Positions 3,473-45,376 of a stretch of 64,000 nucleotides of DNA are shown here, piece by piece. The notes under the pieces were generated by a model. The model had not been told where the DNA came from and searched no databases. It worked only from the letters and a program-made list of their open reading frames with translations. This DNA comes from Naegleria gruberi (Eukaryota), in assembly GCA_000004985.1 (NCBI GenBank), contig GG738858.1; one strand, written 5' to 3'. Position 1 is the stretch's first letter. The number at the start of each line of letters is the position of its first letter. A program made the position numbers and the translations under genes.

Positions 3473-5389
3473 ATGAGAGCATCATCACACTTGCTTAAAC
3501 AACACTGCTCCTCCAAACGAGCATCAGGTAAAAAACTGTTGAGTAATACTGTTGCTTCTGTACTTGGTACAACAGCAAATGGCAGAGCCTTGTCAAGTAC
3601 CATTGTATCATCATCAATCAAGAATAATTTATTTGCCAACAAGAATAATTTATATAACAAACCAAATCATTCCAAGAGAAGCTTTTCGACAAGTTTATTG
3701 TCCAGAAATGAAGAATCTATGGAAGAAGAACCAATCGAAAGAGAAGTTATGGAATATGACGTTGTAATTGTTGGTGCAGGTCCATCTGGTTTATCTTGTG
3801 CAATTAAATTAAAACAATTGGCACAAGAATCGGGAAGTGATATTAGTGTATGTGTTTTGGAAAAGGGACAAGAAGTTGGATCTCATCTCTTATCAGGTGC
3901 ATGTATGGAAACACATTCACTTGAAGAATTATTCCCAAATTTCAGAGAACTTGATGTACCTTTCTATACACCTGCCACAAAGGATAGAATGTTGTTTTTG
4001 ACAGAGAAGAGAGCATTACCTTTACCAACAATTTCCGAAATGAATAATCATGGTAATTACATTGTTAGTTTGGGTCAAATTGCCAAATGGTTATCTGAAC
4101 AAGCAGAAGCTTTAGGAGTTGATATTTTACCAGGTTTTTCTGCTGATCAAGTCGTTTATGCTGATGAAAATAATGATAGAGTCATTGGTGTCATCACAAA
4201 GGATGTTGGTATCGGAAAGGATGGAAAGAGAAAGGACAATTTTGAACCAGGTATTATGCTTCAAGCAAGACAAACAATTTTCTCTGAAGGATGTAGAGGA
4301 TCACTCACTAAAACTCTTTATGCCAATCAGAAATTTAAATTGAGAGAAAATTGCACACCACAAACTTTTGCTCTCGGAGTTAAAGAATTATGGGAATTTC
4401 CAGAAGATCACCCAACATTTGACAAGGGACTTATTACACACAGTGTTGGTTATCCATTAGATGCTCACACTTATGGTGGTTCATTCATGTATCATTTCAA
4501 TGCTGATGGTGCCAATAGAGTTGCTCTTGGTTTAGTTACTGCATTAGATTATGAAAATCCAACTCTCAGTCCATATAATGAATTCCAAAAACTTAAACAT
4601 CATCCAGAATTTAAGAAAGTTCTCGAAGGTGGTAAATGCATTTCATATGGAGCTAGAACTCTCGTTGAAGGTGGTATTCAAGCTCTTCCAAAACTTTCAT
4701 TCCCAGGTGGTGTTTTAATTGGTGATACTGCTGGTTTCTTGAACGTTCCAAAGATCAAGGGTATTCACACAGCCATGAAATCTGGTATTTTGGGAGCTGA
4801 AAGTGTTTTTGAAGCTCTTACAAAGGATCAAGTTGAAGCAAGTACATTCCAAGAAAGATTCAAGAGTTCTTGGTTATACAACGAACTCTACAAGGAAAGA
4901 AATATTAGATCCTATTTCAAATATGGTCTCTATCCTGGTCTTTTATTGGCTGGTGTTGATTCAATTGTTTTTCGTGGAAAGACACCATGGACTGTCAAGA
5001 TGGAAACTTTAGATAATGAACATACCAAACCAATTTCTGAAGTGAAAAAGATTGAATATCCAAAACCAGATGGTGTTATCAGTTTCGATTTGTTGACTAA
5101 TCTCCAACGTTCTGGAACCAACCATAATCACGATCAACCAGCTCACTTAAAGTTGAAGGATGATTCCATACCTGTAAATGTTAACCTCAAAGTTTATGGT
5201 GGTCCTGAACAATACTTCTGTCCTGCCCGTGTGTATGAATTTATTCCAGATGAACAAGGAAATCAAAAGCTCAAGATTAATGCCCAAAATTGTCTCCACT
5301 GTAAGGCATGTGACATTAAGGATCCAAAGCAAAATATTAACTGGACTGTCCCTGAAGGTACTGGAGGTCCATCCTATCTTATTATGTAA
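3473..5389 (+). CDS. ETFDH: Electron-transfer flavoprotein:ubiquinone oxidoreductase, mitochondrial (ETF-QO)
   Basis: Intronless 638 aa protein with an N-terminal R/S-rich presequence, an FAD motif VVIVGAGPSGLSCAIKL and a C-terminal 4Fe-4S ferredoxin motif CPARVYEF...NCLHCKACDIKDP. Confidence 0.9.
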   Translation: MRASSHLLKQHCSSKRASGKKLLSNTVASVLGTTANGRALSSTIVSSSIKNNLFANKNNLYNKPNHSKRSFSTSLLSRNEESMEEEPIEREVMEYDVVIVGAGPSGLSCAIKLKQLAQESGSDISVCVLEKGQEVGSHLLSGACMETHSLEELFPNFRELDVPFYTPATKDRMLFLTEKRALPLPTISEMNNHGNYIVSLGQIAKWLSEQAEALGVDILPGFSADQVVYADENNDRVIGVITKDVGIGKDGKRKDNFEPGIMLQARQTIFSEGCRGSLTKTLYANQKFKLRENCTPQTFALGVKELWEFPEDHPTFDKGLITHSVGYPLDAHTYGGSFMYHFNADGANRVALGLVTALDYENPTLSPYNEFQKLKHHPEFKKVLEGGKCISYGARTLVEGGIQALPKLSFPGGVLIGDTAGFLNVPKIKGIHTAMKSGILGAESVFEALTKDQVEASTFQERFKSSWLYNELYKERNIRSYFKYGLYPGLLLAGVDSIVFRGKTPWTVKMETLDNEHTKPISEVKKIEYPKPDGVISFDLLTNLQRSGTNHNHDQPAHLKLKDDSIPVNVNLKVYGGPEQYFCPARVYEFIPDEQGNQKLKINAQNCLHCKACDIKDPKQNINWTVPEGTGGPSYLIM

Positions 5390-5408
5390 ATTTTTGTTAA
5401 TTAAATAT

Positions 5409-6032
5409 TTATTTATGGTGTTTTTGTAAAGAAGATGATTTTAATTTTGCAAATGCTTTCAAAACATTTCGTTCCTTTTGATTATTGTTGATACAAGGAG
5501 AGGATGTGTTCAATTGTTCAAGTTGCTTAGAATGAAACACCAATTGTATCTTCTCCATCATTTGAATGCAAGCAGATGACTCGACAATTTGCCCTAATTT
5601 ACAATGACAATTCATCTTTAATTGATAAAGTGAATTCAACTCGATCAAATCAACTTGTGGGATGTTATTAATTGGCTCAGAGTTGCTACAAAATAATTGA
5701 ATTAATTTTTGATATCCTATTAATGCATTCGAATACTCCTCTAATTCTAAACATTTATCTGAATAGTTTCTTACAATTAAAATCAATTCATTCCTATTGT
5801 GTTTATGTTCCTCCTTCTCCATCACATCAATTAATATTCTCATTATCAACAAGGCTTTATGAATCATTCCAACACTATTGTAAAGCCTAACCTGATATTT
5901 GAGCGCTTCCTTCTTATCATAAACATGATTCGATTTTTGAGCAATCCTTTCAATACTATTCTCATCTAAGGCTAATTCCTCAATACTTAAATACTGTCCA
6001 TCGAATAAGCTTTCCATTAATTGTTGTTCCAT
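5409..6032 (-). CDS. Hypothetical protein, 207 aa
   Basis: Clean intronless ORF abutting the ETF-QO stop (20 bp gap). Helical and Leu-rich with no motif I can name; PCI/TPR-like is possible. Confidence 0.4.
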   Translation of the reverse strand: MEQQLMESLFDGQYLSIEELALDENSIERIAQKSNHVYDKKEALKYQVRLYNSVGMIHKALLIMRILIDVMEKEEHKHNRNELILIVRNYSDKCLELEEYSNALIGYQKLIQLFCSNSEPINNIPQVDLIELNSLYQLKMNCHCKLGQIVESSACIQMMEKIQLVFHSKQLEQLNTSSPCINNNQKERNVLKAFAKLKSSSLQKHHK

Positions 6033-9876: not shown

Positions 9877-11205
9877 ATGTTTGCAACTTCAAGTGGTCGT
9901 TTTGGTTTAAATTTTGATGATGATAGTGATGATGAATTAATGCTTGTAGATGATGAAAAGGCTGTGGAAAAAATTCAAGACAATGATGATGAATTAATGC
10001 AAGAATCGGAGGAGGATTATAAAAAGTTTCTTAAGGAGAGTGATACATCACTGACAAGCAATTATTCAAATTTACCAAAATCATTTAAACAATCGATAAT
10101 GCACGATTATATTGGACATACTATTCAAAATATTGGTGTATTGTTTTATAATAATTTGGTTCCACAAGTGAGTACATCATTCTCCAAGACATCAAGTGCA
10201 AGCTTTTCGGAATTAATATTGGCTATTTCCAATAGAAACACTGTTCGATTCTATACCTTGTTGAATGATAGCAAACAAATGAAAATTATTGAATTTTCTT
10301 CAGAAGATAATTCCATCACTTTGGAGGAAAATATCAAATTTATCAAGGTTATTGATGATCTTTTAATTGTTTGTGACGAAAGAGGTACAATTTATGTTTA
10401 TAGACACAATGTTAGTCAGATTCCACAACCAGATCAAACAAAATTATTGCCAACACATGAACTTAAAATTACTTGCTCATATAGACCTTTCGAAATTTGT
10501 CCAAATGATTCCAATAACTTTTTATCTTTTGATGTCGAAGCACTTTTTGAGGGAGATATTTTGAAAATCACTGTTGCTTTAGGTACTAGTAATGGAGCTA
10601 TTTATTATTCAACATTCTCAAACACAACCAGAAAGCCTTCTCAATTTGAAGTTCTCAGACAAATCAAATATCAACACAAATCTATGCTTCCAATTCTTGG
10701 TCTTACATTCCCAATCAGAAAGTTGGTTGCTGTTGATATTCCAATTATGTTATATTATAGAACTATGAATTGTGTATTCTCTGTTGATGTAAACGATAAC
10801 AGCATTACACAAGCTAAGTACGAGCCAACTTTGGTAATGAAAACAAAGGACAGAATAACATGTCTATTTGTTCATCCTCTCCAACCAAATAATATTATTG
10901 TTGGTTTGGCAAAAGGTACACTTATTGGAAGAGACCAAATCAGTGTGTGGGATAGATCAGTTTCAAACAATGCAATTAAGGCTATCACATTTGGAAATCA
11001 ATCTAAGAGTATTCTTGTTGGAGATGAACAAGGATTTATTTACAGTGTCGACATGACAAATATTAACCAAAAATCAAGTCAATCATCTGAAAAGAGCATA
11101 GAGAATCTTGATGGAAATGACGTTCTACATATTGAATATCTTTCATCTGAAGATAAGATTTTAGCTGTTAATTCAAATGGAAGAATTAACTTGGTTTTGA
11201 ATTAA
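9877..11205 (+). CDS. Hypothetical protein, 442 aa, with an acidic N-terminus and a possible beta-propeller-like C-terminal part
   Basis: Clean ORF beginning with an ATG at 9877. Recurrent motifs IYVYRH, AIYYSTF and FIYSVD suggest beta-strand repeats; no firm family. Its stop (11203-11205) overlaps the stop of the convergent MFS gene within a TTAA. Confidence 0.45.
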   Translation: MFATSSGRFGLNFDDDSDDELMLVDDEKAVEKIQDNDDELMQESEEDYKKFLKESDTSLTSNYSNLPKSFKQSIMHDYIGHTIQNIGVLFYNNLVPQVSTSFSKTSSASFSELILAISNRNTVRFYTLLNDSKQMKIIEFSSEDNSITLEENIKFIKVIDDLLIVCDERGTIYVYRHNVSQIPQPDQTKLLPTHELKITCSYRPFEICPNDSNNFLSFDVEALFEGDILKITVALGTSNGAIYYSTFSNTTRKPSQFEVLRQIKYQHKSMLPILGLTFPIRKLVAVDIPIMLYYRTMNCVFSVDVNDNSITQAKYEPTLVMKTKDRITCLFVHPLQPNNIIVGLAKGTLIGRDQISVWDRSVSNNAIKAITFGNQSKSILVGDEQGFIYSVDMTNINQKSSQSSEKSIENLDGNDVLHIEYLSSEDKILAVNSNGRINLVLN

Positions 11206-13320
11206 ACTTGAGGTTGAGTTTCTGTTTCTTGATTATTTTCTTCAAGTGTTCCAATAGGATTTTGAGTTTCTTCTTTAGTTTCAATTTTATCGCTAAGCAC
11301 AGCTTCAATCATCTTTGCTGATGTTGGCTCACTAATATCAACAGTTGTAGGAACAGATTTTTCTGTGTCTTTTGCAGAAACTTCTGCCTTGTCTTTGCTT
11401 TCTTTGAGTCTTTTTTGTTCTGCTTTCTTTGCCAAAATAGTTGGAGAAGTTTCTTTGAGGAGGAAAATGTACATAATGATACCTATTAAGGTAAATCCAG
11501 CAAAAATAAACCAAGGAACTGCTTGACTTGTTACAGATACAACTGGAATAAAGAATAAGGAAAGTACAATAGTTGTAACCCACATTGTCAAAGTACTCAA
11601 ACCAGTTCCATAAAGGATTACTTTCTCATTCTCTCCATTGAATACTTCGTGAGCTAGAATATAACACAAAGAGCCAATACCAATATTGAATCCTAAAAGG
11701 AATATACAAATAAAAATGATTGCTAAAATGATCTTGTAATCTGTTCCATTCTCAGAAAATTGAAAAATGAATCCTCCAGCAATATCTGCCAAGAAACAAA
11801 TAGTCATCTAAAAGGGTTAAAATTGAACTCAAAACACGAAACTTACACCAACAAGAGTAAGAGTTTTTCTTCCTAACCTATCAACAAGGAAAATGTTTGG
11901 AAAGACAGTTAAAACCTGCCACATTGAAATACCAAATGATGTGAGTAGTTGATCAAGAGCATCAGTGAGACCTGCACTTTGCATTAAACTTGGGGTGAAA
12001 CTAGTTGCTGATTGAATACCAGTCCATTCCAAAGCCATCATACCATAACAACCAAGTATTAATGGAATAATGACCTTTGAACAGAATAATCTCTTCATAG
12101 CAGCAATGGCTGACATTTGCTCCTGCTTAACTTCTGCAGAGGTATTTGGATCCTTTTCTTTGTTTTCCTTAATTTCCCCAGCATTTGTTGATTGCCTCTT
12201 TTCCTCTAATTCAATATTGTTGGATGTTGATGGAGTGGTTTCCTTACTATCATTATCTTTTAAGAATTGTGGAGACTCTGGAACGATAAACAATATAAGG
12301 AAGAACAATGGAACGCTCCACAAGTTATGGAATGCATGAACAGCTCTCCACATATCAGCAAAACGAACAAAAATTGCAGCAAATGCATAACCCAATGCAA
12401 TTCCTGCAGCCACACCAAGGTTATACATGGAGCCACACAATCCTTGATACTTTGAGTATGGCAACAATTCTGCCACATACATTGAGCAAACAACAGTAGA
12501 AATTCCAGCACCTGCACCAAGGAAACAACGAAACACAATAAGGGATGCATAAGTATAAGAAGCACTTGCTCCAATAGATCCCAACATTGAAATTAGACAA
12601 CAAATAAGCATGCTTGCCTTCCTTCCCAAAAGAGATCCTGTAAACATTGAAAACAAACAACCTGCAAGACCACCAATGAAAATACTACTGGCAAACAAAC
12701 CTTGCAATAAGGTTGTTCCTAAATCTGAAGAGGTACTACTTGTAGATGAAGTGTTATTTTGTTCATTGGTCATAAATAAGGAAAGGGTGTTGGCTTGTTG
12801 AGTTCTGATTTTGAATTTGGTGCACCCACTATTCTGTTGGTTGTTCTTACTGATGACGAGCGAAGAGTGCAACAGGTTCATCAAACTCTTCATATTAAAA
12901 AGTGTCGCCAACAGTTCTTCATGATTTTGATCATTCCAAATGTTTTGTTTCGATGTGGATGATTGTTGAGAAAGTGAACGTTGGGAATCTTCTTCTGATA
13001 ATGAATGAAGCAAATGGTCATCATAGTTATAATTATTACTGATATCTACAACTATTGGTAAATCTAGAACAAATCGATCTACAAAGGATGATCGAAGGCT
13101 GGAGAAGAAGGAAGAAAAACCATTAATATTTACATTATCATAACTGGTAGAACGGATTAAAGTACCATTGGATGAGGAGGATGAATTGTTGGATGAGAAG
13201 AAGGCAGTGGTGGCACTTGAAAGACCACCTCCGATGGTTCCTAAAGCGTAACCAAATACTAAACCACCAAGAATATTGACCAGTACAAGAATAATTGCAA
13301 GAGGAATAGGTTTGGATTTG
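11202..13320 (-). CDS. MFS sugar-porter family transporter with a long glycosylation-like loop 1
   Basis: At least two exons, ~11847..13320 and 11202..11807, with a 39-nt intron GTAAGT...TTTTAG giving ...TLTLVG|MTICFLADIAGG. Motifs include PESPQFLKD (sugar-porter PESPR), GRKASML and 12 TM-like segments. TM1 (PIPLAIILVLVNILGGLVFGYALGTIGG) lies upstream of the first in-frame ATG, so the true start or a 5' exon is unresolved. Confidence 0.65.
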
Positions 13321-14524: not shown

Positions 14525-16051
14525 ATGCAACAACAACCATTTCAAAATCATCATCATCAAGGAACTGCTCCATCATATGAATCCACATTACATCCACAAC
14601 AAAATTCACAAGTAATGTTAGGAAATAATTCATCCAATAATTATTCATCCTTTTCATCGTTTAATAATTTTAATAGTGAATATAGTGGTGGAATTAACAG
14701 TTGTCCTACTCCAACACTTTCAATAACACAATTTTCCTCCTCATCCGATAAGTCTCTCCAACAACACAATACAGCTTTTTATCCTTCCAACGTTTCAACA
14801 CCATCACAATATTCCTTCCATAATAATAATAATACTAACAACACGTTTACACCTAGCCCAACCACATCAACCACTAATAATCAACATCATCATCTTCAAT
14901 ATCACAACAATAATTCCATTGGAACACAACTTGTAGATGATCAAGACTCTTTTTTTAGGCGCCATTCTTCTACTGTAAATAATAACAATTTTCAAAGCTT
15001 TGAAAAAAATAGCCAACAACATCAACAAGCTACACCATTGTTCAATAATAGCTCTTTTATTGTACAATCAAGTCTTCCTTCTGTGAATAATTTACTGAGT
15101 ACGAATGGTGGCGGAGTGAATAATTTAATTGATGAGGATATTGATGAATTGCCTCCAACGATTGATATGAGTAGAATTCGTTCTAATTCATCTCATAATC
15201 AACAACATGTTAATATTTCGAATAGATCTGTAATGAATAATGAAGGATTTATGAGTCAGACTAATTTTTCAAACTATTCCAAGAGCAAATCTCTTTCGGT
15301 GCCAACACCACCTTCTGCCTCATATCTCAGTAATCCAATGAAGAGTCAAGTTTCACCATCCTATGCTTCGAATAATCAAACGATGATAAATATGCAATAT
15401 GATATCAAGAAGACACCATCTCCATCAAACAGTACCAACTCGCAAACATTTGTTAATTCTGATATTAATCAACTTCCCTCAATACATAGCCTTACTAATG
15501 ACATGATGGACACAACCTCAAATAATAGCTCTTCATATGTACACAAACGAGGTCATTCAGATCCTACCAATCTCTCTAAAACTGTACCATACAATTTTGC
15601 TCATCGTGGAAATTTACATTTAACACAGCAACAAAACTCTCCTTCCTCTCCTTCTACACAAATGTCTTGTAACACACCTAATTTAATGAGTATAACAACA
15701 CCTGTTTCTACTCCTTCGAGTTATGTTAGTACAGCTAGATCAGTAGTTTCTCCAAATACACCTACTAACATGAGTTTGGGCAATTTGGGAAATGATAGAA
15801 CTTTCTCTCCATCCTCAAGTAATCCTCCAACTATTCAGATTACCTCTCAAAAATCAAAAACTAAGAGCGCCAGTGTGAAAAGCCCATGCTATGACCAGTT
15901 GTGGTTTAACACAAAATATAGATTTATGGGGAGGAATAAGTATACTGAATTCAAGTCAGTACAGGGTGATACTGCTTCAAACTCGGAATCTAAAATTACA
16001 AAATCAAGCAAGATGAAGAAAAATTTAAATGTCAATAGTCCAATACAATAA
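14525..16051 (+). CDS. N/S/T/Q-rich low-complexity protein, 508 aa, with a basic C-terminus
   Basis: Intronless ORF with an ATG start, poly-N, poly-Q, poly-S and poly-T tracts, and a C-terminal K-rich segment (KSKTKSASVKSP...KSSKMKK). No globular domain identified. Confidence 0.5.
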   Translation: MQQQPFQNHHHQGTAPSYESTLHPQQNSQVMLGNNSSNNYSSFSSFNNFNSEYSGGINSCPTPTLSITQFSSSSDKSLQQHNTAFYPSNVSTPSQYSFHNNNNTNNTFTPSPTTSTTNNQHHHLQYHNNNSIGTQLVDDQDSFFRRHSSTVNNNNFQSFEKNSQQHQQATPLFNNSSFIVQSSLPSVNNLLSTNGGGVNNLIDEDIDELPPTIDMSRIRSNSSHNQQHVNISNRSVMNNEGFMSQTNFSNYSKSKSLSVPTPPSASYLSNPMKSQVSPSYASNNQTMINMQYDIKKTPSPSNSTNSQTFVNSDINQLPSIHSLTNDMMDTTSNNSSSYVHKRGHSDPTNLSKTVPYNFAHRGNLHLTQQQNSPSSPSTQMSCNTPNLMSITTPVSTPSSYVSTARSVVSPNTPTNMSLGNLGNDRTFSPSSSNPPTIQITSQKSKTKSASVKSPCYDQLWFNTKYRFMGRNKYTEFKSVQGDTASNSESKITKSSKMKKNLNVNSPIQ

Positions 16052-16052
16052 A

Positions 16053-18203
16053 TCACAAGTTTAATTGTGTAAGATTAATTAAGGAATCAAAAGCATGTTT
16101 GTATCCAATAAGGGAATGATGTGAAAACAAAAATCTTGATAAGATTATTCTTTCGAATTGTTTGACATCCACCCTCTTCAAATAAAATTTCAATTCTGTT
16201 GGCACGGTTGTATGTTTTGGCTGTACATATGATCTCAAATCATGCAGTTCAAATTTAGCCAAATATGGATTTTCTTCTTCTTCCTTAATATTTTCCACAA
16301 CAGTAGTATAGACAGTCTTAACAGTAGAAACAAGAGAGGAGAAGAGGGATTTTTCTTCTTTAGGTTCTGTAGTCTTTGGAGCTTCAGCTGGGTTTTCAGG
16401 TTCTTCATCAACAAATATCTTTTCATTGAATACTGAAAATAATGCTTCGGATAGGTCTTTCTTCTTTCTATCTTTTGAATTCATCTGCTCCAAATCTGGT
16501 ATTATTAAAAAGATAGTACCTGGAGGATACAACGTAGTAATATTCGTATTCATTTCATTCATCTCATTGAGAAGTGTTGTAACTGCTTTTTTGCTTTCAG
16601 AGTTATCCATCTCGATTGTTCCATCCTCTAGACTGAGATTTACTTTCGAAGAAGATGTAATCAAGGTCTTTTTAGTTTGGAATATTGGGACATATCCCTT
16701 GTCAAGCAAAAATCCATCCAATTTAGTTGCCACATTAGCAATCTTTGAATGCTCCTCAAAGAATTTAGCTAGCTTTTCCTCCCAATTCGTTTGATTGATT
16801 TCCAATCTGAGTCTCTCCATTTGTCCAATACCAATTCTTGGTATAACATCAGCTCCAATAATGAATGTAGTTACAAATGATCGACACCAATTCGATAAAT
16901 TTTCTGAGAATACAGAACTTGATGCATAACTTATAGCTTCAATATCTGGGAGAGGAGGCTCTGGTGTAACTAGGGTTGTACCCAGTTCTCTTGTTGTAAT
17001 GTGATGAGATTTGAATCGTTTAAGGAATAATTCTCTAAGTAAAATGGCAACTACACTGGCCAATCCACCGCCATATGAGTGCCCTGTACAAATAATTCTA
17101 TAATTGGAGTAAGGATTTGTTCCATTGAATATGAAATTAAGTAAACAATCTTCAATTTTACCAATTACCCATCTTGCTGTATTGATATATCCAGCATGGA
17201 CCTTTCCTTCAATCATAGCTTCAGTAGAGTCAGTTTCACAATAATTTTCAGATGGATTTTCTGTCTGAGAACATGATTGAGCATCATCACGAACTGTCAC
17301 AGCACTGGTAAGATTTGCTGTCTTAATCAAATGTTGTCTCTTTTCCTCAGTTCTCTTATAATCTCCATAATATCTGTGAACTTTTAATGTTGAATTTTCA
17401 AGAGTTAAATTGGTAAATATATCATCGACAGATGAAGTTCCTCTCAGGGCAATAATTACAGATTTGGTCTCATGATCTAACTTTACAAAAAAGGCTTGTT
17501 GGTGTGTTGCATTCTTATTTACATAATATTGAACATTCTTTTCAAATCTAAGAGATTCCAAATAACGTAAAACTTCCTTAGTATATTTTGGTTTTCCTGA
17601 AAACCAATTGTTCCTCCTTTCATATTCCTCAAATATAGTTTTTTCAATTAAATTTCTCTCACTTTCATCAGCAACATTTGCATAAGCTAAATTAGCATAA
17701 TAAACCATTCTCTTTGCAAATAATAATTTCTCTTGTAATTCTTCATCTCTTCTTTCCTTTTCTTCCTTTTCATTGAGAATTGGAATTGAATAATTAATTC
17801 CACAATGTTCATTCCACCACTTGTATTCTTCATCGGTGGGCTCCTCCTCAGCCTTACTCCTTTCATATTCATAGGGAAAGGCTAAATCCTGAGTGATAAG
17901 ATCTTGTCTAGCATGTTCTTTAGCTAAACATCCCAAACCAAATACAATATCTCCAATAGTAAGATGTCTATAGGATGGATAGGATTCCTGCAAACATTTA
18001 GCAGTAGCAGTGATCATATCTGTTAATGATGGTGTATAATCAGTGGTTGTAGTTGAAGTACTTGAGGCGTTTGAAGAATCATTGATCCCTCCGAAATGTT
18101 TTAATACATCAATGTTTAATTCACCACTCGGAAGGTGATGTTCATGATTCTTTCTACTATATTTAAAGGTAATTGTAGTTTGAATCATTTTCAGAACAAT
18201 CAA
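16053..18203 (-). CDS. Class 3 (fungal/DAG-lipase-type) lipase domain protein
   Basis: 716 aa intronless protein. Nucleophile elbow CTGHSYGGGLASVVAILL is preceded by VHAGYINTARWV (lipase_3 pattern), with an acidic coiled region and a C-terminal extension. Its stop codon (16053-16055) lies 1 bp from the neighbour's stop. Confidence 0.65.
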   Translation of the reverse strand: MIVLKMIQTTITFKYSRKNHEHHLPSGELNIDVLKHFGGINDSSNASSTSTTTTDYTPSLTDMITATAKCLQESYPSYRHLTIGDIVFGLGCLAKEHARQDLITQDLAFPYEYERSKAEEEPTDEEYKWWNEHCGINYSIPILNEKEEKERRDEELQEKLLFAKRMVYYANLAYANVADESERNLIEKTIFEEYERRNNWFSGKPKYTKEVLRYLESLRFEKNVQYYVNKNATHQQAFFVKLDHETKSVIIALRGTSSVDDIFTNLTLENSTLKVHRYYGDYKRTEEKRQHLIKTANLTSAVTVRDDAQSCSQTENPSENYCETDSTEAMIEGKVHAGYINTARWVIGKIEDCLLNFIFNGTNPYSNYRIICTGHSYGGGLASVVAILLRELFLKRFKSHHITTRELGTTLVTPEPPLPDIEAISYASSSVFSENLSNWCRSFVTTFIIGADVIPRIGIGQMERLRLEINQTNWEEKLAKFFEEHSKIANVATKLDGFLLDKGYVPIFQTKKTLITSSSKVNLSLEDGTIEMDNSESKKAVTTLLNEMNEMNTNITTLYPPGTIFLIIPDLEQMNSKDRKKKDLSEALFSVFNEKIFVDEEPENPAEAPKTTEPKEEKSLFSSLVSTVKTVYTTVVENIKEEEENPYLAKFELHDLRSYVQPKHTTVPTELKFYLKRVDVKQFERIILSRFLFSHHSLIGYKHAFDSLINLTQLNL

Positions 18204-19620: not shown

Positions 19621-20247
19621 ATGTTACGATTCATTACCAAGCCAAAATCACTCCTCAAAACAAGTTCCATCCTCTCCTTCGGATTTCAAAAATTCGCAAA
19701 CCTTCCTTCCAACAACAATGCAATGCTGACAACTTTCCATCACCAAGGTGAAAGAATTCGTTTCTATTGCCAGGCTTGTGAGGAATCAATTGCACCAGGA
19801 ACCCCCTATGAAGATCATCACTTGGATATTTACTTATCCAATGCGTTGGATGTTATGTTGACCGATGATAAACATGCTTTGGAAATTTTGGACTTTGTTT
19901 TATCTGCTCGACCTTCACAAGCCAACGTACTATCAAAGAAGGCTGCAATTTTATTTGGAAGAATGGATTTTAAGGAGGCTGTTGTATGTTTGGATAAATG
20001 TCTTGATTCTGTACCTCCCCATGCAAGACCTTATATTTTGGAAGATGTTATTTGTACATATAAGGGAAATTATTTTGAGGAACGATATGTGATGCACTTA
20101 ATTCAAGGAGTTTTTAGAAGACATCTTGGAGAATTGGATATTGCTATTTCTGAATTTGGAATAGCATTGTTGGATAGAGCCAATGATCCATTTGCAATTA
20201 GTTTGAGAGATGAGCTCATTGAAAAGAAGAAACAACAAACCAACTGA
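19621..20247 (+). CDS. Hypothetical protein, 208 aa, with a possible mitochondrial presequence
   Basis: Clean ORF. The N-terminus MLRFITKPKSLLKTSSILSFGF is basic and hydroxylated; no known domain. Confidence 0.4.
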   Translation: MLRFITKPKSLLKTSSILSFGFQKFANLPSNNNAMLTTFHHQGERIRFYCQACEESIAPGTPYEDHHLDIYLSNALDVMLTDDKHALEILDFVLSARPSQANVLSKKAAILFGRMDFKEAVVCLDKCLDSVPPHARPYILEDVICTYKGNYFEERYVMHLIQGVFRRHLGELDIAISEFGIALLDRANDPFAISLRDELIEKKKQQTN

Positions 20248-20279
20248 GTGGAGTATAATAAATCCTATATGGTTTATTA

Positions 20280-22077
20280 TTATTTTGAGGATATTTGGAT
20301 TGTGATCTCCTGTCCAGTATTGACATTATTAGTTAATAGTAATTCTACATAATTCTGATGGGATTGTTGGAGAATATTCATTGAATTGCTTGGATATAAT
20401 TTAATGGAAAATCCATTCGGATAATAATATTCTCTATTCAGATAGATAACTGTTGTTTCACTTCGACAATTTTCACTAACTTTGAATGAAAATTTGAAAT
20501 CACTCGAGAGAGGATCGAATTTCATATAGGTTGGATCTCCACAAACAATTGGTACATAAGTTCTACTCAGAGCTTTGACTTTTCTTGTTTGTAATTGTCC
20601 ATTCGCTCCATAAAAACTTTCAATAGTTGGAGGTGAAGCAGCAGTTGTCATATCATTATAATACTTGAATTGCCAATAGGTCCATGATCTCAAATATTGA
20701 TCTGCTAAACTTGTCATCCAATCCAATTCGTACTCACTTTGAGTGAAATTGCTTAAAGCTCCAAATTCAGTCATGAATGCTCCAGTCTATTGTTAAGATT
20801 GTTTCAATGTACTATATATCAAAAGTGTTCTTACCTTTAATCGTTTTACATCTGATTCCTTTGCCACAACAGTGACATCATCATCAATCCTGCATGTAAA
20901 TCTACTCTTTGGGTCTCCAGTTGAGTTGACATCTCCACAATAGATATGATAAGAGTAAACTTGTTTCTCTAAATCTTGAGTGCCAAGAGGAGATTCTTCA
21001 AATCCAGATGAAAGTAGATCAGTAACAGTAGGTTCTATACCAGTTCCAAAACTTAAAGTTACTTATAACACTTACCAAAGAAAACTAAATGATTCGAATT
21101 CACTGAACGAATAGCAGAATATACTTGTTGATAAAGTGGAATTAAATTCTGACGGTCTGCCTTCCCTCTCTGATCCAAAAGTAGTGACAAATCCTCATAA
21201 ATATCACCTGGCCATGGCTCATTAATAATTCTATTCAGCCATTTAATTTCACACATCATCAATTTACAACAATAGATACTCGTTAATGAATTATTGAACA
21301 ACATATGAAACTCACTCAAGTCCTAAAACATTTTCCTCATCCTTAAAATAATTTGCAGCAACTTTCCAAAAATTTACAAATGAATCCCTTAAACCATTTA
21401 CATTATTATAAAAGTTTTGGAATGCATTTGAGGCACCCTGAGTCAAATAATAGATAAAGAATGGTTCTTTCAAACAATCTTGAATAATTGGAGCACCAGT
21501 TGTTTGATTAATTCTCAAATGAATACTTTCGAATGGAAATGGAAAAGGTTGAGGTGATTTATATTGAACAGCCCATCTAGGAAACCCCTCTCCACAAAAC
21601 AGATCACTCATCACATCTTGATGAACATCCAGAATAATCATGATATCATACTGTTGTGCATTTCTAATAATTTCCTTTAGTTTCGAAAGATATTTGTAAT
21701 CATATTGATTTCTAATAGGTTCTGTTCCTTGCCATGAAAGCATCAATCTAATCACATTAAATCCCCAATCCTTTAAATTCTGAAAATCAACATTAGTCAA
21801 TGAAGTATTCGAATTGTAATTATACAAATCAGGATAAAAAGGATAAACCTTGTAAACTGCATTCACACTATTTTCCATATGATCAATTTTTCTGATAAAT
21901 CCATTGATTAACATACCCATGGAATATTCTTGTCCTATTCAATCCATCAATAAATTGTTGATTGACCTTGTTAACTTGAACGAAACCATTCGCATTCACA
22001 ACCATGCAATCAATCATCATGACAAGTGTCATCATGAACAGAAGAACCGTTTGATTCTTCAATATTAGTTGCGACAT
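20280..22077 (-). CDS. Secreted glycoside hydrolase family 5 enzyme, endoglycoceramidase-like
   Basis: Five exons (minus strand) at ~22077..21917, 21867..21316, 21230..21076, 21034..20835 and 20786..20280, with introns of 49, 85, 41 and 48 nt. There is a signal peptide MSQLILKNQTVLLFMMTLVMMIDCMVVNA. The splices restore FHG|VNAVYKVYPFYPD, GFNVIRLMLSW...DVHQD, the acid/base motif VLGLE|IINEPWPGDIY, VFF|EP and the nucleophile MTEFG. Confidence 0.75.
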
Positions 22078-29571: not shown

Positions 29572-30057
29572 ATGAGCAATCTTGATTTGAACACGGCACT
29601 TATTTCCCCAATTTCAAATTCTTCTCCTGTTTTACGAAGGAATGATACAATACCAAGGGTTTCCATCATGGAGTCCTCTTTTTTGGAAGATATTTCAGAA
29701 ATTCATGAGGTTCCGATCAATAGAAACATAAATGATGAACTGAACAGTCTTCAACACGATCTTTCCAGAATTTCTCAAGGAAGAATATTTGACACAGGAC
29801 CAATTGATGAAATTATGCAAGATACAATATTTACAACCGAAGAAAGAAATGAAATTTATTTAAATGATAAGATAATTAACGATTTTTCATCACGAGTAAT
29901 GCTTGAAAATTATATTCTATCTAAATGTGAATCGGAACTTGACAATACAAAGAATAACAAAATTTGGAATGAAGATGTAAGAGAAAAATTTATTGGTACT
30001 GATGATTGGGATTACCTACATCATGATGAGCTCAAATCTGCCTTCAAAAAATTTTAA
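29572..30057 (+). CDS. Hypothetical protein, 161 aa
   Basis: Clean ORF with an ATG start and no recognisable domain. Confidence 0.35.
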   Translation: MSNLDLNTALISPISNSSPVLRRNDTIPRVSIMESSFLEDISEIHEVPINRNINDELNSLQHDLSRISQGRIFDTGPIDEIMQDTIFTTEERNEIYLNDKIINDFSSRVMLENYILSKCESELDNTKNNKIWNEDVREKFIGTDDWDYLHHDELKSAFKKF

Positions 30058-30076
30058 TTTTACTTATTTACAATTA

Positions 30077-31573
30077 TTATCGAATACTTCTCATGTTTCT
30101 TGGAGCAGTTGATAAAACAGATTGATGTTCTGAAGGTATGGATTTTTCTGAAAGAGTGTTTGGGCTGAATACTTTCCAAAATCTCAAAGTTTCATCACCT
30201 GCAGCACTTACTACAGTTGTCCCATCAGGACTTTGAGCCATGTGTAATACTCTACTTTTATGACCAGTCAATTCGGCAACTTTTACGAGAGAAGGATACT
30301 TCCAAACACACAACTGGTTTTGTGAAAATCCATGAGATGAGATAATTTCTCTATCATTCTTTGACCAAATAATTGAGCACACTTGAGAATTGGTATCAAT
30401 AGTATTAAGTAATGTACCTGATTGGGTATTCCAAAACATCATCTTTCTGTCACTTGTTCCTCCTCCAGAAGCCAATAAATTATTTTGCCAAGGACACCAT
30501 GCCAAGGCTTTAACTGCAGCCACATGCTCTCTCAATGAAAACTTTGGAAGAACCTCATTTTGAGTTAAAATCAAGCTCTTATCCCAAATATTCAATATAT
30601 TATCATTTGCTCCACTAGCCAATTGATTTCCATCAGGAGACCATTTCAAACCACAAACCTCAAAGTCTTGATGGGCACTTTGTGTTGTCAATAAATGTTT
30701 GGCTTGTCTTACATCATGGGATAATATTTTACCATCTTTGCCTCCACTTGACAAAATGTAAGAATTCCAAGATAGAGAGCAAACTCTTTGGGTATGACCT
30801 TTCATTGTTCTGATTTGCTTACTTCTGGATACATCCCATATTTGAACATCGTTGTAATTTGTTCCAACAGCCAAAAAACTACCATCTTCTGACCAGGACA
30901 CACTCGTAACATAATTATCTTGTTGAGAGCAGGACATCAACTTATTGATTTCACACGTTTCACCATTCCATAAATATACACTGTCACATAATGAAACAGC
31001 TAGTATGTTATTTTGATTCCAATCCAATAGATTGAGATAGTAATCATCAATCATACCTGGAGCATCCAAAACCTTATCTGGAGTTTGAGGAATATGTCTG
31101 GAAGAAACTTGTTTTCGTTGACTTGTAGAAGTGGTAGTTGTTCCAGGGAATATTTTGTTTTGAGAATAAAGTACACGTAGATTATTGTTCCAATCAGCAG
31201 GTGCCTTTGGAGCTTTTTCAGTAAGGGCCAGGATTTTTGCATCCTTTACTTTCTTACCATCAAACAATCGTTGCTCTAATATCTTGTTATGTAGATTTTC
31301 CTTGTCACCTTCGGAAACACTCATATCTTCATCATCCTCCATTTGATTGTTAATTAAATTATACTTGCAAATGTCCATGTCTTGTGAAGTCCTTCTAGAG
31401 GGAATAAATCTCTGATCAATATTGCTAGTACTACTACTACCATCGATATCAAGTGTTGTGGAAGAGAGTGTCTTTTGTTTTTGCTTTCTCTTCCATCTTG
31501 GTTCGTATACTGAAGAAAGATCTGAAGTTAAATCGTCATTAATATCGGCCGAGTCTTCAAAGTGGTAGGACAT
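30077..31573 (-). CDS. CDC20: APC/C activator CDC20 (Fizzy)
   Basis: 498 aa intronless protein. It has a C-box DQRFIPSRR, the CDC20-type NNLRVLYSQN motif, seven WD40 repeats and a C-terminal IR tail (...NMRSIR). Confidence 0.8.
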   Translation of the reverse strand: MSYHFEDSADINDDLTSDLSSVYEPRWKRKQKQKTLSSTTLDIDGSSSTSNIDQRFIPSRRTSQDMDICKYNLINNQMEDDEDMSVSEGDKENLHNKILEQRLFDGKKVKDAKILALTEKAPKAPADWNNNLRVLYSQNKIFPGTTTTSTSQRKQVSSRHIPQTPDKVLDAPGMIDDYYLNLLDWNQNNILAVSLCDSVYLWNGETCEINKLMSCSQQDNYVTSVSWSEDGSFLAVGTNYNDVQIWDVSRSKQIRTMKGHTQRVCSLSWNSYILSSGGKDGKILSHDVRQAKHLLTTQSAHQDFEVCGLKWSPDGNQLASGANDNILNIWDKSLILTQNEVLPKFSLREHVAAVKALAWCPWQNNLLASGGGTSDRKMMFWNTQSGTLLNTIDTNSQVCSIIWSKNDREIISSHGFSQNQLCVWKYPSLVKVAELTGHKSRVLHMAQSPDGTTVVSAAGDETLRFWKVFSPNTLSEKSIPSEHQSVLSTAPRNMRSIR

Positions 31574-35327: not shown

Positions 35328-36470
35328 ATGAAAATCTCCATTGCTGTGGTTGGTAGTGGCTTGAGTGCCTTGTCTCTTGTTAAGAAATTAATTTCTAATC
35401 CAAAATCTTCCTCACTTGTTGATGGAATCACACTCTTTGAAAAATCTAGAGGAGTTGGAGGACGAATGGCAACGAGAAGAGCAACATTGGATGGAAAAAC
35501 GGCTTATTTCGATCATGGAGCACAATATTTCACAGTCAGAAGTGAACAATTCAAGGAGCAAGTAAATCAATGGATCGATCAGAAACAAGTAATTTTATGG
35601 GATGATCCTATTGTATCATTAGAGAATGACATGACAATTAGGACAAAATCCGCCCAACTTGGCAGTTTGAGTGATAATAACTCTAACGACTTGATTTCAA
35701 GATATATTTCAACAAGTAATGGTATGAATGCTCTTTGTAAATCAATGAAATCAGAGATTTTAGACACAGCCAAAATTTCAAATGTTTATGTCAATTTTGA
35801 AATGGAAAAACTTGTGAAAACAATCTCAAAAGACATCAGTGGAAAGTGGAAAGTTGGGCTAGTTGACTCGATTTATGAACAGTTATTCGATTTAATAATA
35901 CTTAGTTGCCCTCCAGAACAAACAGCACAATTACTTCAAACAACAGAGCATCCAACCAATTTGTTAACTAAAGTTGAGAAAATGGAAATGTATCCATGTT
36001 GGTCAATGATGATTTCTTTCCCAACAAAACTTAATCAATCAACCATTAAGGGAGGAGCATTTGTTAATATGGATAATTGTTCTATATCTTGGATATGCAA
36101 TCAATCAAGCAGAAACAATGAGCAACAAGATAGAGAGATGTGGGTTGTTCATGCTTCCAAATACTGGTCTTCTACCAATTTAGAAAAATCCAGTACTGAA
36201 GTTCAACATATTCTATTCAATGATTTTATGAAACTATTAGAACGTTTTGAAAACAAGAATGGGTCTGAAATTATTACACAAGCTGCTGATCATGTCAATG
36301 TTCATAGATGGAGATATTCTATTCCATTTTCAACAAATTCAACCTACTCTGTAAGTGAATGGTATAATGATGGAATTGCCTGTATTGGTGATTGGACACA
36401 ACAGGGAAGAGTCGAAGGGGCTTACTTAAGTGGAGTTGAAATGGCTGATTTCTTAATTTCAAAATTGTAG
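35328..36470 (+). CDS. Renalase-like FAD-dependent amine oxidase
   Basis: 380 aa. It has a Rossmann MKISIAVVGSGLSALS, the GGRMATRR...DHGAQYFT motif typical of the renalase/COG3380 family, and a C-terminal HRWRYS. Confidence 0.6.
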   Translation: MKISIAVVGSGLSALSLVKKLISNPKSSSLVDGITLFEKSRGVGGRMATRRATLDGKTAYFDHGAQYFTVRSEQFKEQVNQWIDQKQVILWDDPIVSLENDMTIRTKSAQLGSLSDNNSNDLISRYISTSNGMNALCKSMKSEILDTAKISNVYVNFEMEKLVKTISKDISGKWKVGLVDSIYEQLFDLIILSCPPEQTAQLLQTTEHPTNLLTKVEKMEMYPCWSMMISFPTKLNQSTIKGGAFVNMDNCSISWICNQSSRNNEQQDREMWVVHASKYWSSTNLEKSSTEVQHILFNDFMKLLERFENKNGSEIITQAADHVNVHRWRYSIPFSTNSTYSVSEWYNDGIACIGDWTQQGRVEGAYLSGVEMADFLISKL

Positions 36471-36496
36471 TTTATTTCAGTTTGTTTTTTAATAAT

Positions 36497-37961: not shown

Positions 37962-39555
37962 ATGCCTACACATCAGCCAAGCGCAAGTTTCTCCAACCAC
38001 GAATCTCTGGAGATCTCTAACCCGCAAGTCTTGCCATCCACTCCAATTGCTGTTGATTGCGAAGAAAGCAATTTTTTCCAAGACCACAAGAAAAATCCAT
38101 CTAAACATTATGTAATTGTTATGGTAGGATTGCCAGCTAGAGGAAAATCCTACATTGCCAGACAGCTAACCAAATATTTGAACTGGTTGAATATTGATTG
38201 TTCAATTTTTAATGCTGGAGAGAAAAGAAGAGAAATGCTAGGAGCTGGGCAATCTTCTTTCTTCTGGGATAAGAACAATTCAGAAGGGCAAGAACAAAGA
38301 AAGAGGATTGGTCTTGTTACTCTTCAAGAGTTGATTGATTGGTTAATGTTGGATGAAACTGAAAACGAGGAATCCTCAAAGAAAATGAAATATGGTGGTG
38401 GGAATTGTGCTGAGGAATATACAAAAAGAGAGATCAAATGTGCAATTTTTGACGCAACAAACACAACCAGAGAACGAAGACAAATGATTATTGATCATTT
38501 GACAGACAAAAATCTACCAAGACCTTTGGAGCCAAATCATATTATTTTTGTGGAATCTATCTGTAACAATCCACAAATTATTGAAGCCAATGTAAGGGAT
38601 ATTAAAATCAAGTCTTCAGATTACAAAGGTGTTTCTGCAGAACAAGCAATTAACGATTTTATGCAAAGAATCAAAGCCTATGAACAAGTATATGAAACTA
38701 TTTCAGACGATGAGGAAAAGAGATTAAGTTATATTCAAATGATAGATATTGGTAAAAAATTCATCCTTAATAGAATTGGTGGATATGTACCTGGAAAAAT
38801 TAATCAGTGTTTAATGAACATTCATTTAGCTCCAAGAGTAATATGGCTTTCAAGACATGGAGAAAGTATGGATAATACAATGGGATTGTTAGGAGGAGAT
38901 TCAAACTTGACTGAAAAAGGTCAATGCTATGCTAAAGTATTATATAGATTTGTTAAGAGGATGCAAGAAGAGAGAAGGAATCAAGAAATATCAATCGAAA
39001 AACCACAATTGGACAATATGATGGTTTGGACTAGTCTTTTAAAAAGAACACAACAGACATCCTTCCATTTTAAACATGATGAAAACTTCAAAGTTGTTCG
39101 TTGGAGATGCTTAAATGAGCTAGATGCTGGCGTTTGTGAAGGAATGACATATGAAAGAGTGAAAGAAGAGCTTCCTCATGAATATGAGGCCAGAGAGGCT
39201 GACAAATTCAGATACAGACCACAAAACGGAGAAAGTTATTTAGATATGATTTATAGAATTGAACCAGCCATTGCTGAACTAGAAAGACAGAGATGCCCTC
39301 TTTTAATAATTGGTAGGTTTATTTTAGGTTTAATTTTCAATTAATCAATACTCTCAAAAAGGTCATCAAGCTGTAAATCGTATATTGTATTCATATCTCA
39401 CTGGACTACGTCCAGAAACTTGCACAAGACTTCCAATTCCATTAAACACAGTTATTGAAATAATCCCTAACGCATATGGGGTGGAGGAAAAGAGATACGA
39501 TTTAAATCAAGAGGTACAAAAAGAATACGAATTAATTATGTCTCAAAAGAAATAA
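37962..39555 (+). CDS. 6-phosphofructo-2-kinase / fructose-2,6-bisphosphatase
   Basis: Two exons at ~37962..39312 and 39362..39555 with a 49-nt intron GTAGGT...CAAAAAG. It has a kinase P-loop VIVMVGLPARGKSYIARQLTKYLNW and a phosphatase RHGES (IWLSRHGESMDNTMG). The splice restores LLIIG|HQAVNRILYSYLTG. Confidence 0.85.
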
Positions 39556-39556
39556 T

Positions 39557-41411: not shown

Positions 41412-41425
41412 ATTAATTCATCAGG

Positions 41426-45349: not shown

Positions 45350-45376
45350 ATTATATTTTAATATTATTATTACTAT

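What the first reader, a model, noticed from the sequence alone, without database searches (positions are those of the whole stretch)
11200..11207. Convergent genes terminate on a shared palindromic TTAA, seen twice, and most convergent pairs have 0-30 bp between stops
At 11202-11205 the plus gene's TAA and the minus MFS gene's TAA are the two strands of one TTAA. The same thing happens at 60090-60093 (hypothetical + gene versus NMD3). Other convergent pairs end 1-32 bp apart: 16051/16053, 49513/49515, 39555/39557, 5389/5409 and 20247/20280. The 3'UTRs must therefore run into, or antisense to, the neighbouring coding sequence. That is an unusual degree of compaction for a genome that still carries many introns, and it implies constraints on polyadenylation signals placed inside neighbouring genes.
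Basis: seen in the sequence. Interest (0 to 1): 0.55.

Follow-up and report, generated by a model that had tools for sequence, protein, structure and literature searches.

The report
Convergent Naegleria genes share stop codons
In this Naegleria gruberi stretch, genes facing each other tail-to-tail have almost no DNA between them and twice share one TTAA as both stop codons; this is real, but it follows from the amoeba's known very short mRNA tails and stop codons that double as poly(A) signals.

Summary
The window is Naegleria gruberi NEG-M (exact matches to six official proteins). At 11202-11205 and 60090-60093 one TTAA supplies the TAA stops of two convergent, genuine genes: WD40-like/MFS transporter and a conserved 205-aa protein/NMD3. 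All other listed pairs check out, and I found more. The 14 resolved convergent pairs have stop-to-stop gaps of -4,-4,1,1,1,14,19,19,26,27,32,43,56,182 (median 19). Rough divergent spacers have a median near 170 bp.

Given that compaction, two TTAA cases are not beyond chance (P about 0.11). YTAR is the only possible stop/stop overlap shorter than 6 nt.

In both cases TTAA is the core of an ATTAAA hexamer covering the + gene's stop, a "dual-use" stop/poly(A) signal. Such signals are published for N. gruberi, are enriched here (9 of 31 TAA stops), and this one is conserved in N. lovaniensis and N. fowleri. The minus partners have no canonical hexamer until +162/+164. AATAAA is purged from sense coding strands (3) but not antisense strands (65).

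With published 3'UTR medians of 39 nt (22 nt for dual-use), 3' ends must overlap the neighbour's coding sequence. Annotated relatives show the same abutting, but neither TTAA arrangement is present in the relatives examined. This looks like spacer erosion, not a new mechanism.

The parts
11202..11205 (.). Shared TTAA. The + stop TAA is 11203-11205 (WD40-like gene). The - stop TAA is the reverse complement of 11202-11204 (MFS transporter).
11201..11206 (+). ATTAAA hexamer whose positions 3-5 are the + gene's stop codon (a 'dual-use' stop/poly(A) signal). Its TTAA core also supplies the - gene's stop.
   Evidence: offset -4. The same ATTAAA-over-stop is conserved in N. lovaniensis (L001) and N. 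fowleri (L002) orthologues.
9877..11205 (+). WD40-like/beta-propeller protein gene, 442 aa.
   Evidence: Orthologues in N. lovaniensis and N. fowleri at 43% identity and 97% coverage, in conserved synteny. Weak beta-propeller Pfam hits.
11202..11807 (-). Last exon of the MFS sugar-transporter gene. A 39-nt GT-AG intron lies at 11808-11846 and the upstream exon runs from 11847 to about 13388.
   Evidence: Pfam Sugar_tr/MFS_1, intron read, orthologues convergent with the same neighbour.
11035..11040 (-). First canonical AATAAA downstream of the MFS stop (+162). It lies antisense inside the WD40-like coding sequence.
60090..60093 (.). Second shared TTAA. The + stop TAA is 60091-60093 (205-aa protein). 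The - stop TAA is the reverse complement of 60090-60092 (NMD3).
   Evidence: The same 4-nt overlap occurs in the metagenome copies L004/L005.
60089..60094 (+). ATTAAA hexamer covering the stop codon of the 205-aa gene.
59476..60093 (+).
   Evidence: 99% identical to N. gruberi XP_002668268.1. Full-length homologues in N. lovaniensis (44%) and Willaertia magna (37%). dN/dS 0.26 with in-frame indels against the divergent copy in L005.
60090..60737 (-). Last exon of NMD3 (OB-fold domain to C terminus).
   Evidence: Pfam NMD3_OB. The C terminus ...LEELLEAWTI is identical in a related species, where the gene ends in TGA with AATAAA at +37.
59921..59926 (-). First canonical AATAAA downstream of the NMD3 stop (+164). 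It lies antisense inside the 205-aa gene.
16049..16055 (.). TAAaTCA: N/Q-rich protein gene (+) and class-3 lipase gene (-), 1 base between stops. The + stop lies inside AATAAA.
39553..39559 (.). TAAtTTA: PFK2/FBPase2 gene (+, last exon after the 49-nt intron 39313-39361) and DHHC palmitoyltransferase gene (-), 1 base between stops. The - stop lies inside ATTAAA.
49511..49517 (.). TAAtTTA: FKBP/TPR-like gene (+) and actin-related protein gene (-), 1 base between stops. The - gene's ATTAAA starts 1 nt after its stop and spans the + gene's stop.
5387..5411 (.). ETF-QO (+) / 207-aa ORF (-), 19 bp between stops. The - stop lies inside AATAAA. The + gene has ATTAAA at +11.
   Evidence: ETF-QO is exactly XP_002679260.1.
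20245..20282 (.). NAEGRDRAFT_65541 (+) / GH5 glycosidase (-), 32 bp between stops. AATAAA lies at +10 and +2.
30055..30079 (.). 161-aa ORF (+) / CDC20 (-), 19 bp between stops.
36468..36499 (.). Amine oxidase (+) / aminotransferase (-), 26 bp between stops. The - stop lies inside ATTAAA. The + gene's first AATAAA (+40) lies antisense inside the aminotransferase coding sequence.
41409..41428 (.). GPN3 (+) / phytochelatin synthase (-), 14 bp between stops. The + stop lies inside AATAAA.
45347..45379 (.). Rit1-like gene, last exon (+) / EF-hand protein gene (-), 27 bp between stops.
57675..57723 (.). NAEGRDRAFT_47768 (+) / SAM synthetase (-), 43 bp between stops. Both match official models exactly. 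The + stop lies inside ATTAAA.

Best explanation
The two TTAA sites are genuine shared stop tetramers between real convergent genes of Naegleria gruberi NEG-M. They are the limit case of a general architecture in which tail-to-tail genes keep essentially no spacer.

This is tolerated for three reasons. (i) No promoter is needed between 3' ends. (ii) N. gruberi mRNAs have ultrashort 3'UTRs directed by A[A/U]UAAA, which often overlaps the stop codon itself. (iii) AAUAAA is purged only from the sense strand of coding sequence, so a transcript entering a neighbour in antisense can be cleaved there.

In both TTAA cases the tetramer is the core of an AUUAAA hexamer that contains the + gene's UAA. 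By palindromy the same four bases give the - gene its UAA. I infer that the + mRNAs are cleaved about 15-22 nt downstream, which is antisense to the last ~7 codons of the partner. The - mRNAs (MFS, NMD3) have no canonical hexamer before +162/+164. They therefore either use a non-canonical signal or carry ~180-nt 3'UTRs fully antisense to the partner's C-terminal coding region.

The arrangement most likely arose neutrally, by spacer erosion and stop-codon shift until the ORF hit the next possible stop. YTAR is the only stop/stop overlap shorter than 6 nt that the genetic code allows.
For: Shown:
- Coordinates and geometry.
- Only YTAR is allowed among gaps -1 to -5.
- Both partners of both pairs are real genes.
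- The window is N. gruberi NEG-M.
- 13 of 14 resolved convergent gaps are <60 bp, median 19, against about 170 for divergent spacers (P=1e-4).
- A[AT]TAAA lies within -7..+40 of the stop at 25 of 42 3' ends against 11.6% expected (P=1e-13).
- The TAA stop lies inside the hexamer at 9 of 31 stops against 9.9% of all TAA trinucleotides (P=0.0025).
- ATTAAA over the WD40-like stop is conserved in N. lovaniensis and N. fowleri.
- AATAAA occurs 3 times on sense and 65 times on antisense strands in 43 kb of coding sequence (P=4e-16).
- The TTAA state is absent from the relatives examined. The MFS stop is 40 and 38 bp away in N. lovaniensis and N. fowleri. In a related species NMD3 has a different neighbour and AATAAA at +37.
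- Abutting stops (gaps 1-4) occur in independently annotated relatives.
- The count of TTAA cases fits a simple decay model (P=0.11).

From the literature: N. gruberi median 3'UTR is 39 nt, or 22 nt with dual-use AAUAAA. The signal lies 15-20 nt upstream of cleavage. About 11-13% of stops overlap AAUAAA (PMC11529991).
Against: - I had no transcript or poly(A)-site data for this locus, so cleavage positions are inferred.
- AUUAAA is the weaker signal in N. gruberi and is common in sense coding sequence (30 copies here; PMC11529991). The hexamers at the two TTAA sites may therefore not be the signals actually used.
- About 40% of the 3' ends here lack a canonical hexamer within 40 nt, so signal use is only partly understood.
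- The sample is one 64-kb window (14-15 pairs), and the divergent-spacer lengths rest on approximate start codons.
Confidence: 0.72

Rival explanations
1. Functional coupling. The shared or abutting stops are selected because obligatory sense-antisense overlap of the two mRNAs' 3' ends regulates the pair. Possible routes are dsRNA/RNAi, transcriptional interference, or mutual termination by colliding polymerases.
For: Overlap is forced at gaps <=1. One abutting pair (IF-2/hypothetical, gap 1) has an identical 25-nt junction in N. lovaniensis and N. fowleri. The MFS and NMD3 transcripts may run about 180 nt antisense into their partners.
Against: Neither TTAA arrangement is present in the relatives examined (gaps 40/38 bp, or a different neighbour). 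The paired genes have unrelated functions. The gap distribution fits neutral decay. N. lovaniensis and N. fowleri are close relatives, so the shared junction may simply be inherited.
Confidence: 0.1
2. Composition only. TTAA sharing reflects AT-richness and stop-codon drift alone. The ATTAAA hexamers at these two stops are not the working poly(A) signals, and real cleavage sites lie further inside the neighbours.
For: ATTAAA occurs 30 times in sense coding sequence and is the weaker signal (PMC11529991). 9.9% of all TAA trinucleotides already sit in A[AT]TAAA.
Against: Stops inside the hexamer are three-fold enriched (P=0.0025). ATTAAA over the WD40-like stop is kept in three species although the last codon differs (AAT/AAT/CAT) and the flanks diverge. 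Hexamers are strongly concentrated just after stops (P=1e-13).
Confidence: 0.13
3. Artefact. One member of each pair is a spurious ORF, or its true stop lies elsewhere because of an unrecognised terminal intron.
For: The exact WD40-like and 205-aa sequences of the window are not in the protein collection. The official models at these loci may therefore differ or be missing.
Against: All four genes have domain and/or orthologue support right up to the C terminus. The WD40-like C terminus ...NGRINLV(L/M)N is conserved. The NMD3 C terminus ...EAWTI is conserved. The 205-aa protein aligns end to end with homologues and shows dN/dS 0.26. The MFS exon carries the end of Sugar_tr. Six other ORFs in the window match official models exactly.
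Confidence: 0.04

Closest known systems
'Dual-use' stop codon / poly(A) signals with ultrashort 3'UTRs (Giardia, Spironucleus, and reported for N. gruberi; Genome Res 2024, PMC11529991)
   Same: An A[A/U]UAAA hexamer contains the UAA stop. This is the same organism, and the enrichment and position fit the published description. The predicted 3'UTR is about 20 nt.
   Different: As far as I could find in its main text, the paper does not analyse convergent neighbours or antisense overlap (the words 'convergent genes' and 'antisense' are absent). Here AUUAAA (5 cases) is as frequent as AAUAAA (4) at stops. The palindromic TTAA core additionally provides the opposite gene's stop.
4-bp convergent gene overlaps CTAA/TTAA/CTAG/TTAG in prokaryotes (Biol Direct 2007, PMC2174442)
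   Same: The tetramer geometry is identical, and so is the proposed origin: loss or shift of a stop codon extends an ORF to the next available stop. The consequence is also the same, in that termination signals must lie inside the partner's coding sequence.
   Different: This is a nuclear eukaryotic genome with spliceosomal introns. 3' ends are made by cleavage and polyadenylation, not by rho or hairpin terminators.
Overlapping transcription in compacted eukaryotic genomes (microsporidia, nucleomorphs; Williams et al. 2005 PNAS, recalled from memory and found cited in the papers)
   Same: Intergenic spacers are shorter than the UTRs, so neighbouring transcripts overlap.
   Different: Those are extremely reduced parasite or endosymbiont genomes in which signals are lost and multi-gene transcripts arise.
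Convergent-gene 3' overlaps / cis-natural antisense pairs in yeasts (own knowledge)
   Same: Convergent genes have overlapping 3'UTRs, with potential for interference or dsRNA.
   Different: In yeasts the coding sequences are normally separated by 100-300 bp. Here the stop codons themselves abut or overlap.

Membership tests
Dual-use stop codon / poly(A) signal | Poly(A) hexamer (A[A/U]UAAA in N. gruberi) physically overlaps the stop codon | tested here: met
   ATTAAA at 11201-11206 and 60089-60094 has TAA as positions 3-5. In the window, 9 of 31 TAA stops are like this.
Dual-use stop codon / poly(A) signal | Occurrence above what sequence composition gives | tested here: met
   29% of TAA stops against 9.9% of all TAA trinucleotides, P=0.0025.
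Dual-use stop codon / poly(A) signal | Signal kept in orthologues | tested here: met
   ATTAAA over the stop of the WD40-like gene is present in N. gruberi, N. lovaniensis and N. fowleri. A fourth species has AATAAA at +8. Not tested for the 205-aa gene.
Dual-use stop codon / poly(A) signal | mRNA cleaved about 15-20 nt after the hexamer, giving a 3'UTR of about 22 nt | not testable with these tools
   No transcript data for this locus were available. The published genome-wide values come from PMC11529991.
4-nt convergent stop/stop overlap (YTAR) | Tetramer CTAA/TTAA/CTAG/TTAG ending two ORFs on opposite strands | tested here: met
   TTAA at both sites. Enumeration shows no other overlap shorter than 6 nt is possible.
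4-nt convergent stop/stop overlap (YTAR) | Both ORFs are genuine genes | tested here: met
   Domains, orthologues and dN/dS.
Overlapping convergent transcripts of compact eukaryotic genomes | Spacer shorter than the sum of the two 3'UTRs | tested here: met
   Median gap is 19 bp, against a published median 3'UTR of 39 nt per gene.
Overlapping convergent transcripts of compact eukaryotic genomes | Overlapping complementary RNAs actually detected | not testable with these tools
   Needs the direct-RNA or 3'-end reads.
Regulatory cis-antisense / RNAi-coupled convergent pairs | Arrangement conserved, with functional linkage of the partners | tested here: not met
   Neither TTAA state is present in the relatives examined, and the partners have unrelated functions. 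Small RNAs were not testable.

The most novel reading that the evidence does not exclude
Across the N. gruberi genome most convergent gene pairs may produce obligatorily complementary mRNA 3' ends of 20 to about 180 nt. The cell might exploit this for pairwise regulation or termination, for example through endogenous siRNAs from the overlaps or through polymerase collision. Palindromic A-TTAA-A hexamers would then serve as compact modules that encode two stop codons and one poly(A) signal in six bases.
Probability: 0.1. Interest if true: 0.6.

Novelty: new member of a known kind. Interest (0 to 1): 0.3.

Why it matters
It shows that a free-living, intron-containing eukaryote can push convergent genes to the same physical limit seen in prokaryotes. 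It also links that limit to a specific property, a poly(A) signal that can sit on the stop codon and is purged only from the sense strand.

There are practical consequences. N. gruberi gene models, strand-unaware RNA-seq quantification and knock-in or tagging designs at C termini must allow for the neighbour's 3'UTR and signal lying inside the coding sequence.

The asymmetry I predict is directly testable with existing nanopore data: an mRNA tail of about 20 nt on one strand and a long antisense tail on the other. Beyond that, this is an expected corollary of published features rather than a new mechanism.

Tried and rejected
- Exact-sequence look-ups of the ETF-QO, WD40-like and 205-aa proteins in the contig index found nothing. 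The N. gruberi assembly is not in that index, so official gene coordinates and flanks could not be fetched. Identity was established through protein cluster look-ups instead.
- Literature searches for Naegleria with convergent, overlapping or intergenic terms found no paper describing stop sharing. The one relevant paper holds no supplementary tables.
- I tested whether the neighbour's C-terminal codons are shaped by the partner's U-rich downstream element. The 45 nt after tight 3' ends are T-rich (44% versus 33%). However, the last 10-15 codons of genes outside tight pairs are similarly A-rich (P=0.08-0.18), so there is no specific constraint.
- I tested whether antisense AATAAA or ATTAAA is placed conveniently near the neighbour's stop. 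The first-hit distances (110-547 nt) look like the background density of about 2.6 per kb.
- I considered that the sharp identity break in L005 might mark the end of the NMD3 transcript. It is more likely a recombination or assembly boundary, because the NMD3 part is identical even at synonymous sites.
- Synteny around GPN3 is not conserved in the relatives, so orthologous gap comparisons were possible only for the WD40/MFS and TPR pairs.
- tRNA and Rfam scans of the window found nothing in the spacers.
- The 55230/55698 interval (467 bp, with weak + strand ORFs) could not be resolved.
Full report
**Identity of the window.** The sequence is about 33% G+C and densely packed with ORFs on alternating strands. 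Six ORFs are identical to official proteins of Naegleria gruberi strain NEG-M on a 782,252-bp scaffold:
- ETF-QO, XP_002679260.1
- NAEGRDRAFT_65541
- glutamate-1-semialdehyde aminotransferase, XP_002679383.1
- NAEGRDRAFT_47768
- SAM synthetase, XP_002679392.1
- GPN3

Conserved proteins are 83-90% identical to N. lovaniensis, in conserved gene order. Published N. gruberi transcript data therefore apply directly.

**The observation.** At 11202-11205 the sequence is TTAA. The + ORF 9877-11205 ends with TAA at 11203-11205. The - ORF 11202-11807 ends with the reverse complement of 11202-11204. The same holds at 60090-60093 for ORFs 59476-60093 (+) and 60090-60737 (-). The other quoted pairs are as stated. 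The 39555 stop needs a 49-nt GT-AG intron at 39313-39361. Splicing it restores the conserved ...LLIIG|HQAVNR motif of the FBPase-2 domain.

I found six further tight pairs. The 14 resolved convergent pairs have -4,-4,1,1,1,14,19,19,26,27,32,43,56 and 182 bases between stop codons. One more interval (55230/55698) is unresolved. EMP70 faces a conserved micro-ORF about 197 bp away.

**Are the genes real?**
- The WD40-like gene has full-length orthologues in N. lovaniensis, N. fowleri and a metagenomic relative, always convergent with an MFS transporter. Its C terminus ...NGRINLV(L/M)N is conserved.
- The MFS last exon carries the end of the Sugar_tr domain and joins the upstream exon across a 39-nt intron.
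- The NMD3 exon has the NMD3 OB domain. Its C terminus ...LEELLEAWTI is identical in a species with 74% identity.
- The 'hypothetical' 205-aa protein is 99% identical to an annotated N. gruberi protein on a small allelic scaffold. It aligns end to end with about 200-aa proteins of N. lovaniensis (44%) and Willaertia magna (37%). Against a divergent copy in a metagenome contig it shows dS 0.77, dN 0.20, dN/dS 0.26 and only in-frame indels.

**Is it more than chance?** Two questions need separating.

First, the compaction. Convergent gaps (median 19 bp) are about ten times shorter than rough divergent start-to-start spacers (median about 170; P=1e-4).

Second, the TTAA itself. Enumeration shows that gaps of -1, -2, -3 and -5 are impossible and that -4 is possible only as CTAA/TTAA/TTAG/CTAG. 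TTAA is therefore the hard wall for non-overlapping coding sequences. An exponential decay from that wall, fitted to the 13 tight pairs, gives P=0.11 for two or more pairs at -4 and P=0.14 for five or more at gap <=1. The shared TTAA needs no special explanation once the compaction is accepted.

**What makes the compaction workable.** Direct-RNA sequencing of N. gruberi (PMC11529991) found the following:
- median 3'UTR of 39 nt
- about 11-13% of stop codons overlapping AAUAAA, termed 'dual-use' stops, with a median 3'UTR of 22 nt
- the hexamer itself as the main determinant of cleavage, with only 1238 AAUAAA in all coding sequences

The window reproduces this:
- A[AT]TAAA lies between the stop and +40 at 25 of 42 putative 3' ends, against 11.6% expected (P=1e-13).
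- The TAA stop forms positions 3-5 of the hexamer at 9 of 31 TAA stops, against 9.9% of all TAA trinucleotides (P=0.0025).
- One of the 42 ends (45785) later proved to be an intron stop, which changes nothing material.

Both TTAA sites are such hexamers: ATTAAA at 11201-11206 and at 60089-60094. Six bases thus hold the + gene's stop, its candidate poly(A) signal and, by palindromy of the TTAA core, the - gene's stop. The ATTAAA over the WD40-like stop is kept in N. lovaniensis and N. fowleri although the last codon and the flanks differ. That argues it is functional.

**The strand asymmetry.** In 43 kb of confident coding sequence AATAAA occurs 3 times on the sense strand and 65 times on the antisense strand (P=4e-16). 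ATTAAA occurs 30 times on sense and 48 on antisense. Coding sequences are therefore protected from premature cleavage of their own mRNA. They are not protected, and need not be, from cleavage of a transcript entering in antisense.

Two further tests agree. The last 10-15 codons of genes in tight pairs do not differ significantly in composition from those of other genes. This is so even though the 45 nt after tight 3' ends are T-rich. First antisense hexamers inside neighbours are spaced as the background density predicts.

**Predicted anatomy of the two TTAA pairs (inferred).** The + mRNAs should end about 15-22 nt after the hexamer. That places their ends antisense to the last seven or so codons of MFS and NMD3. 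The - genes have no canonical hexamer from 40 nt upstream of the stop to +161/+163. The first AATAAA lies at +162 (11040-11035) and +164 (59926-59921). They must either use a non-canonical signal or carry 3'UTRs of about 180 nt that are entirely antisense to the partner's coding region. In a related species NMD3 ends in TGA, has AATAAA at +37, and is followed by a co-oriented Ras gene. The N. gruberi arrangement thus replaced NMD3's ordinary 3' region with the neighbour's coding sequence.

**Evolution.** The WD40-like/MFS pair is convergent in all species examined, but the stops are 40 bp (N. lovaniensis) and 38 bp (N. fowleri) apart. In a fourth species they are 442 bp apart with a 5S rRNA gene in between. 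The N. gruberi MFS tail beyond the last homologous residue is about 23 codons longer. This fits an ORF that extended across the former spacer (inference).

Abutting stops are nevertheless common in independently annotated relatives:
- N. lovaniensis and N. fowleri IF-2/hypothetical pair, gap 1, with an identical junction ccaTAAaTTAaac
- N. fowleri, gap 3
- Willaertia magna, gaps 2 and 4

The architecture is a trait of this lineage. The individual TTAA cases are labile.

**Comparison with what is known.**
- The tetramer geometry and its origin by stop-codon shift are described for prokaryotes (PMC2174442).
- Dual-use stops and ultrashort 3'UTRs are described for Giardia and for N. gruberi itself (PMC11529991).
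- Overlapping transcription in compact eukaryotes is known from microsporidia and nucleomorphs (recalled from memory; cited in the papers).

I found no paper describing stop sharing or convergent spacing in Naegleria, but the search covers open-access text only. I therefore rate this a new example of a known kind, not a new mechanism. The small added points are the A-TTAA-A triple use, the 22-fold sense/antisense asymmetry of AATAAA, and the predicted short-versus-long 3'UTR asymmetry within TTAA pairs.

**Limits.** The sample is one 64-kb window with no transcript evidence for this locus. Start codons used for divergent spacers are approximate. Several small ORFs are unresolved.

Noticed in passing
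window 9235-9348 (-): A 37-codon ORF encodes a single-pass membrane micro-protein (MGIAAGDIIAIVVFVLLVIFAIFVGLGFLRRKRNNKV). It is conserved with third-position variation in N. lovaniensis (L001 about 5202-5303, unannotated there) and in a metagenomic relative (L003 about 2952-3089). It lies convergent to EMP70.
   Followed up: partly
window-wide, coding ORFs: AATAAA is about 22-fold rarer on the sense strand than on the antisense strand of coding sequence (3 versus 65 in 43 kb). ATTAAA is only mildly depleted (30 versus 48).
   Followed up: yes
L005 versus window 59470-61000: A metagenome contig (run ERR1078381) matches the window almost exactly (one difference in the 648-bp NMD3 exon, none synonymous) from about 59975 through NMD3. 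It then abruptly drops to 50-80% identity across the rest of the 205-aa gene (65% aa identity, ORF intact). It could be a divergent allele, a recombinant or an assembly chimera. A second contig from the same run (L004) is 99.7% identical throughout.
   Followed up: partly
L003 4887-5005 (+): In a related species a 5S rRNA gene (Rfam 103.6 bits) sits in the 442-bp spacer between the same WD40-like/MFS convergent pair that shares TTAA in N. gruberi.
   Followed up: yes
window 40552 / 40572: The likely start codons of the divergent DHHC palmitoyltransferase (-) and GPN3 (+) genes are only about 19 bp apart. Their promoters or 5'UTRs must overlap the neighbour too.
   Followed up: no
window 28293 / 28335 (-): This is a tandem pair. 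The stop of the RCC1-like gene is only 41 bp upstream of the start codon of the next gene (an EMP70 paralogue). The 3'UTR, promoter and 5'UTR must share about 40 bp.
   Followed up: no
window 11808-11846, 39313-39361, about 45780-45821: Introns are very short (39, 49 and 42 nt; GTAAGT or GTAGGT ... AG). The 42-nt intron of the EF-hand gene carries an in-frame TGA, which makes the gene look like two adjacent ORFs (45377-45784 and 45785-46192).
   Followed up: partly
window 55230-55698: This 467-bp interval lies between a HAT/TPR-repeat gene (+) and a - strand gene, both with AATAAA right after their stops. It contains + strand ORFs (55270-55512, 55540-55662) with modest coding scores and no Pfam hits. 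It may hold a small unrecognised gene.
   Followed up: partly
window 9077-9082; L001 about 5050: The block TAAATTAAATATTTAA about 40 nt after the EMP70 stop (containing ATTAAA) is identical in N. gruberi and N. lovaniensis amid otherwise diverged spacer. This fits a conserved poly(A) signal.
   Followed up: no
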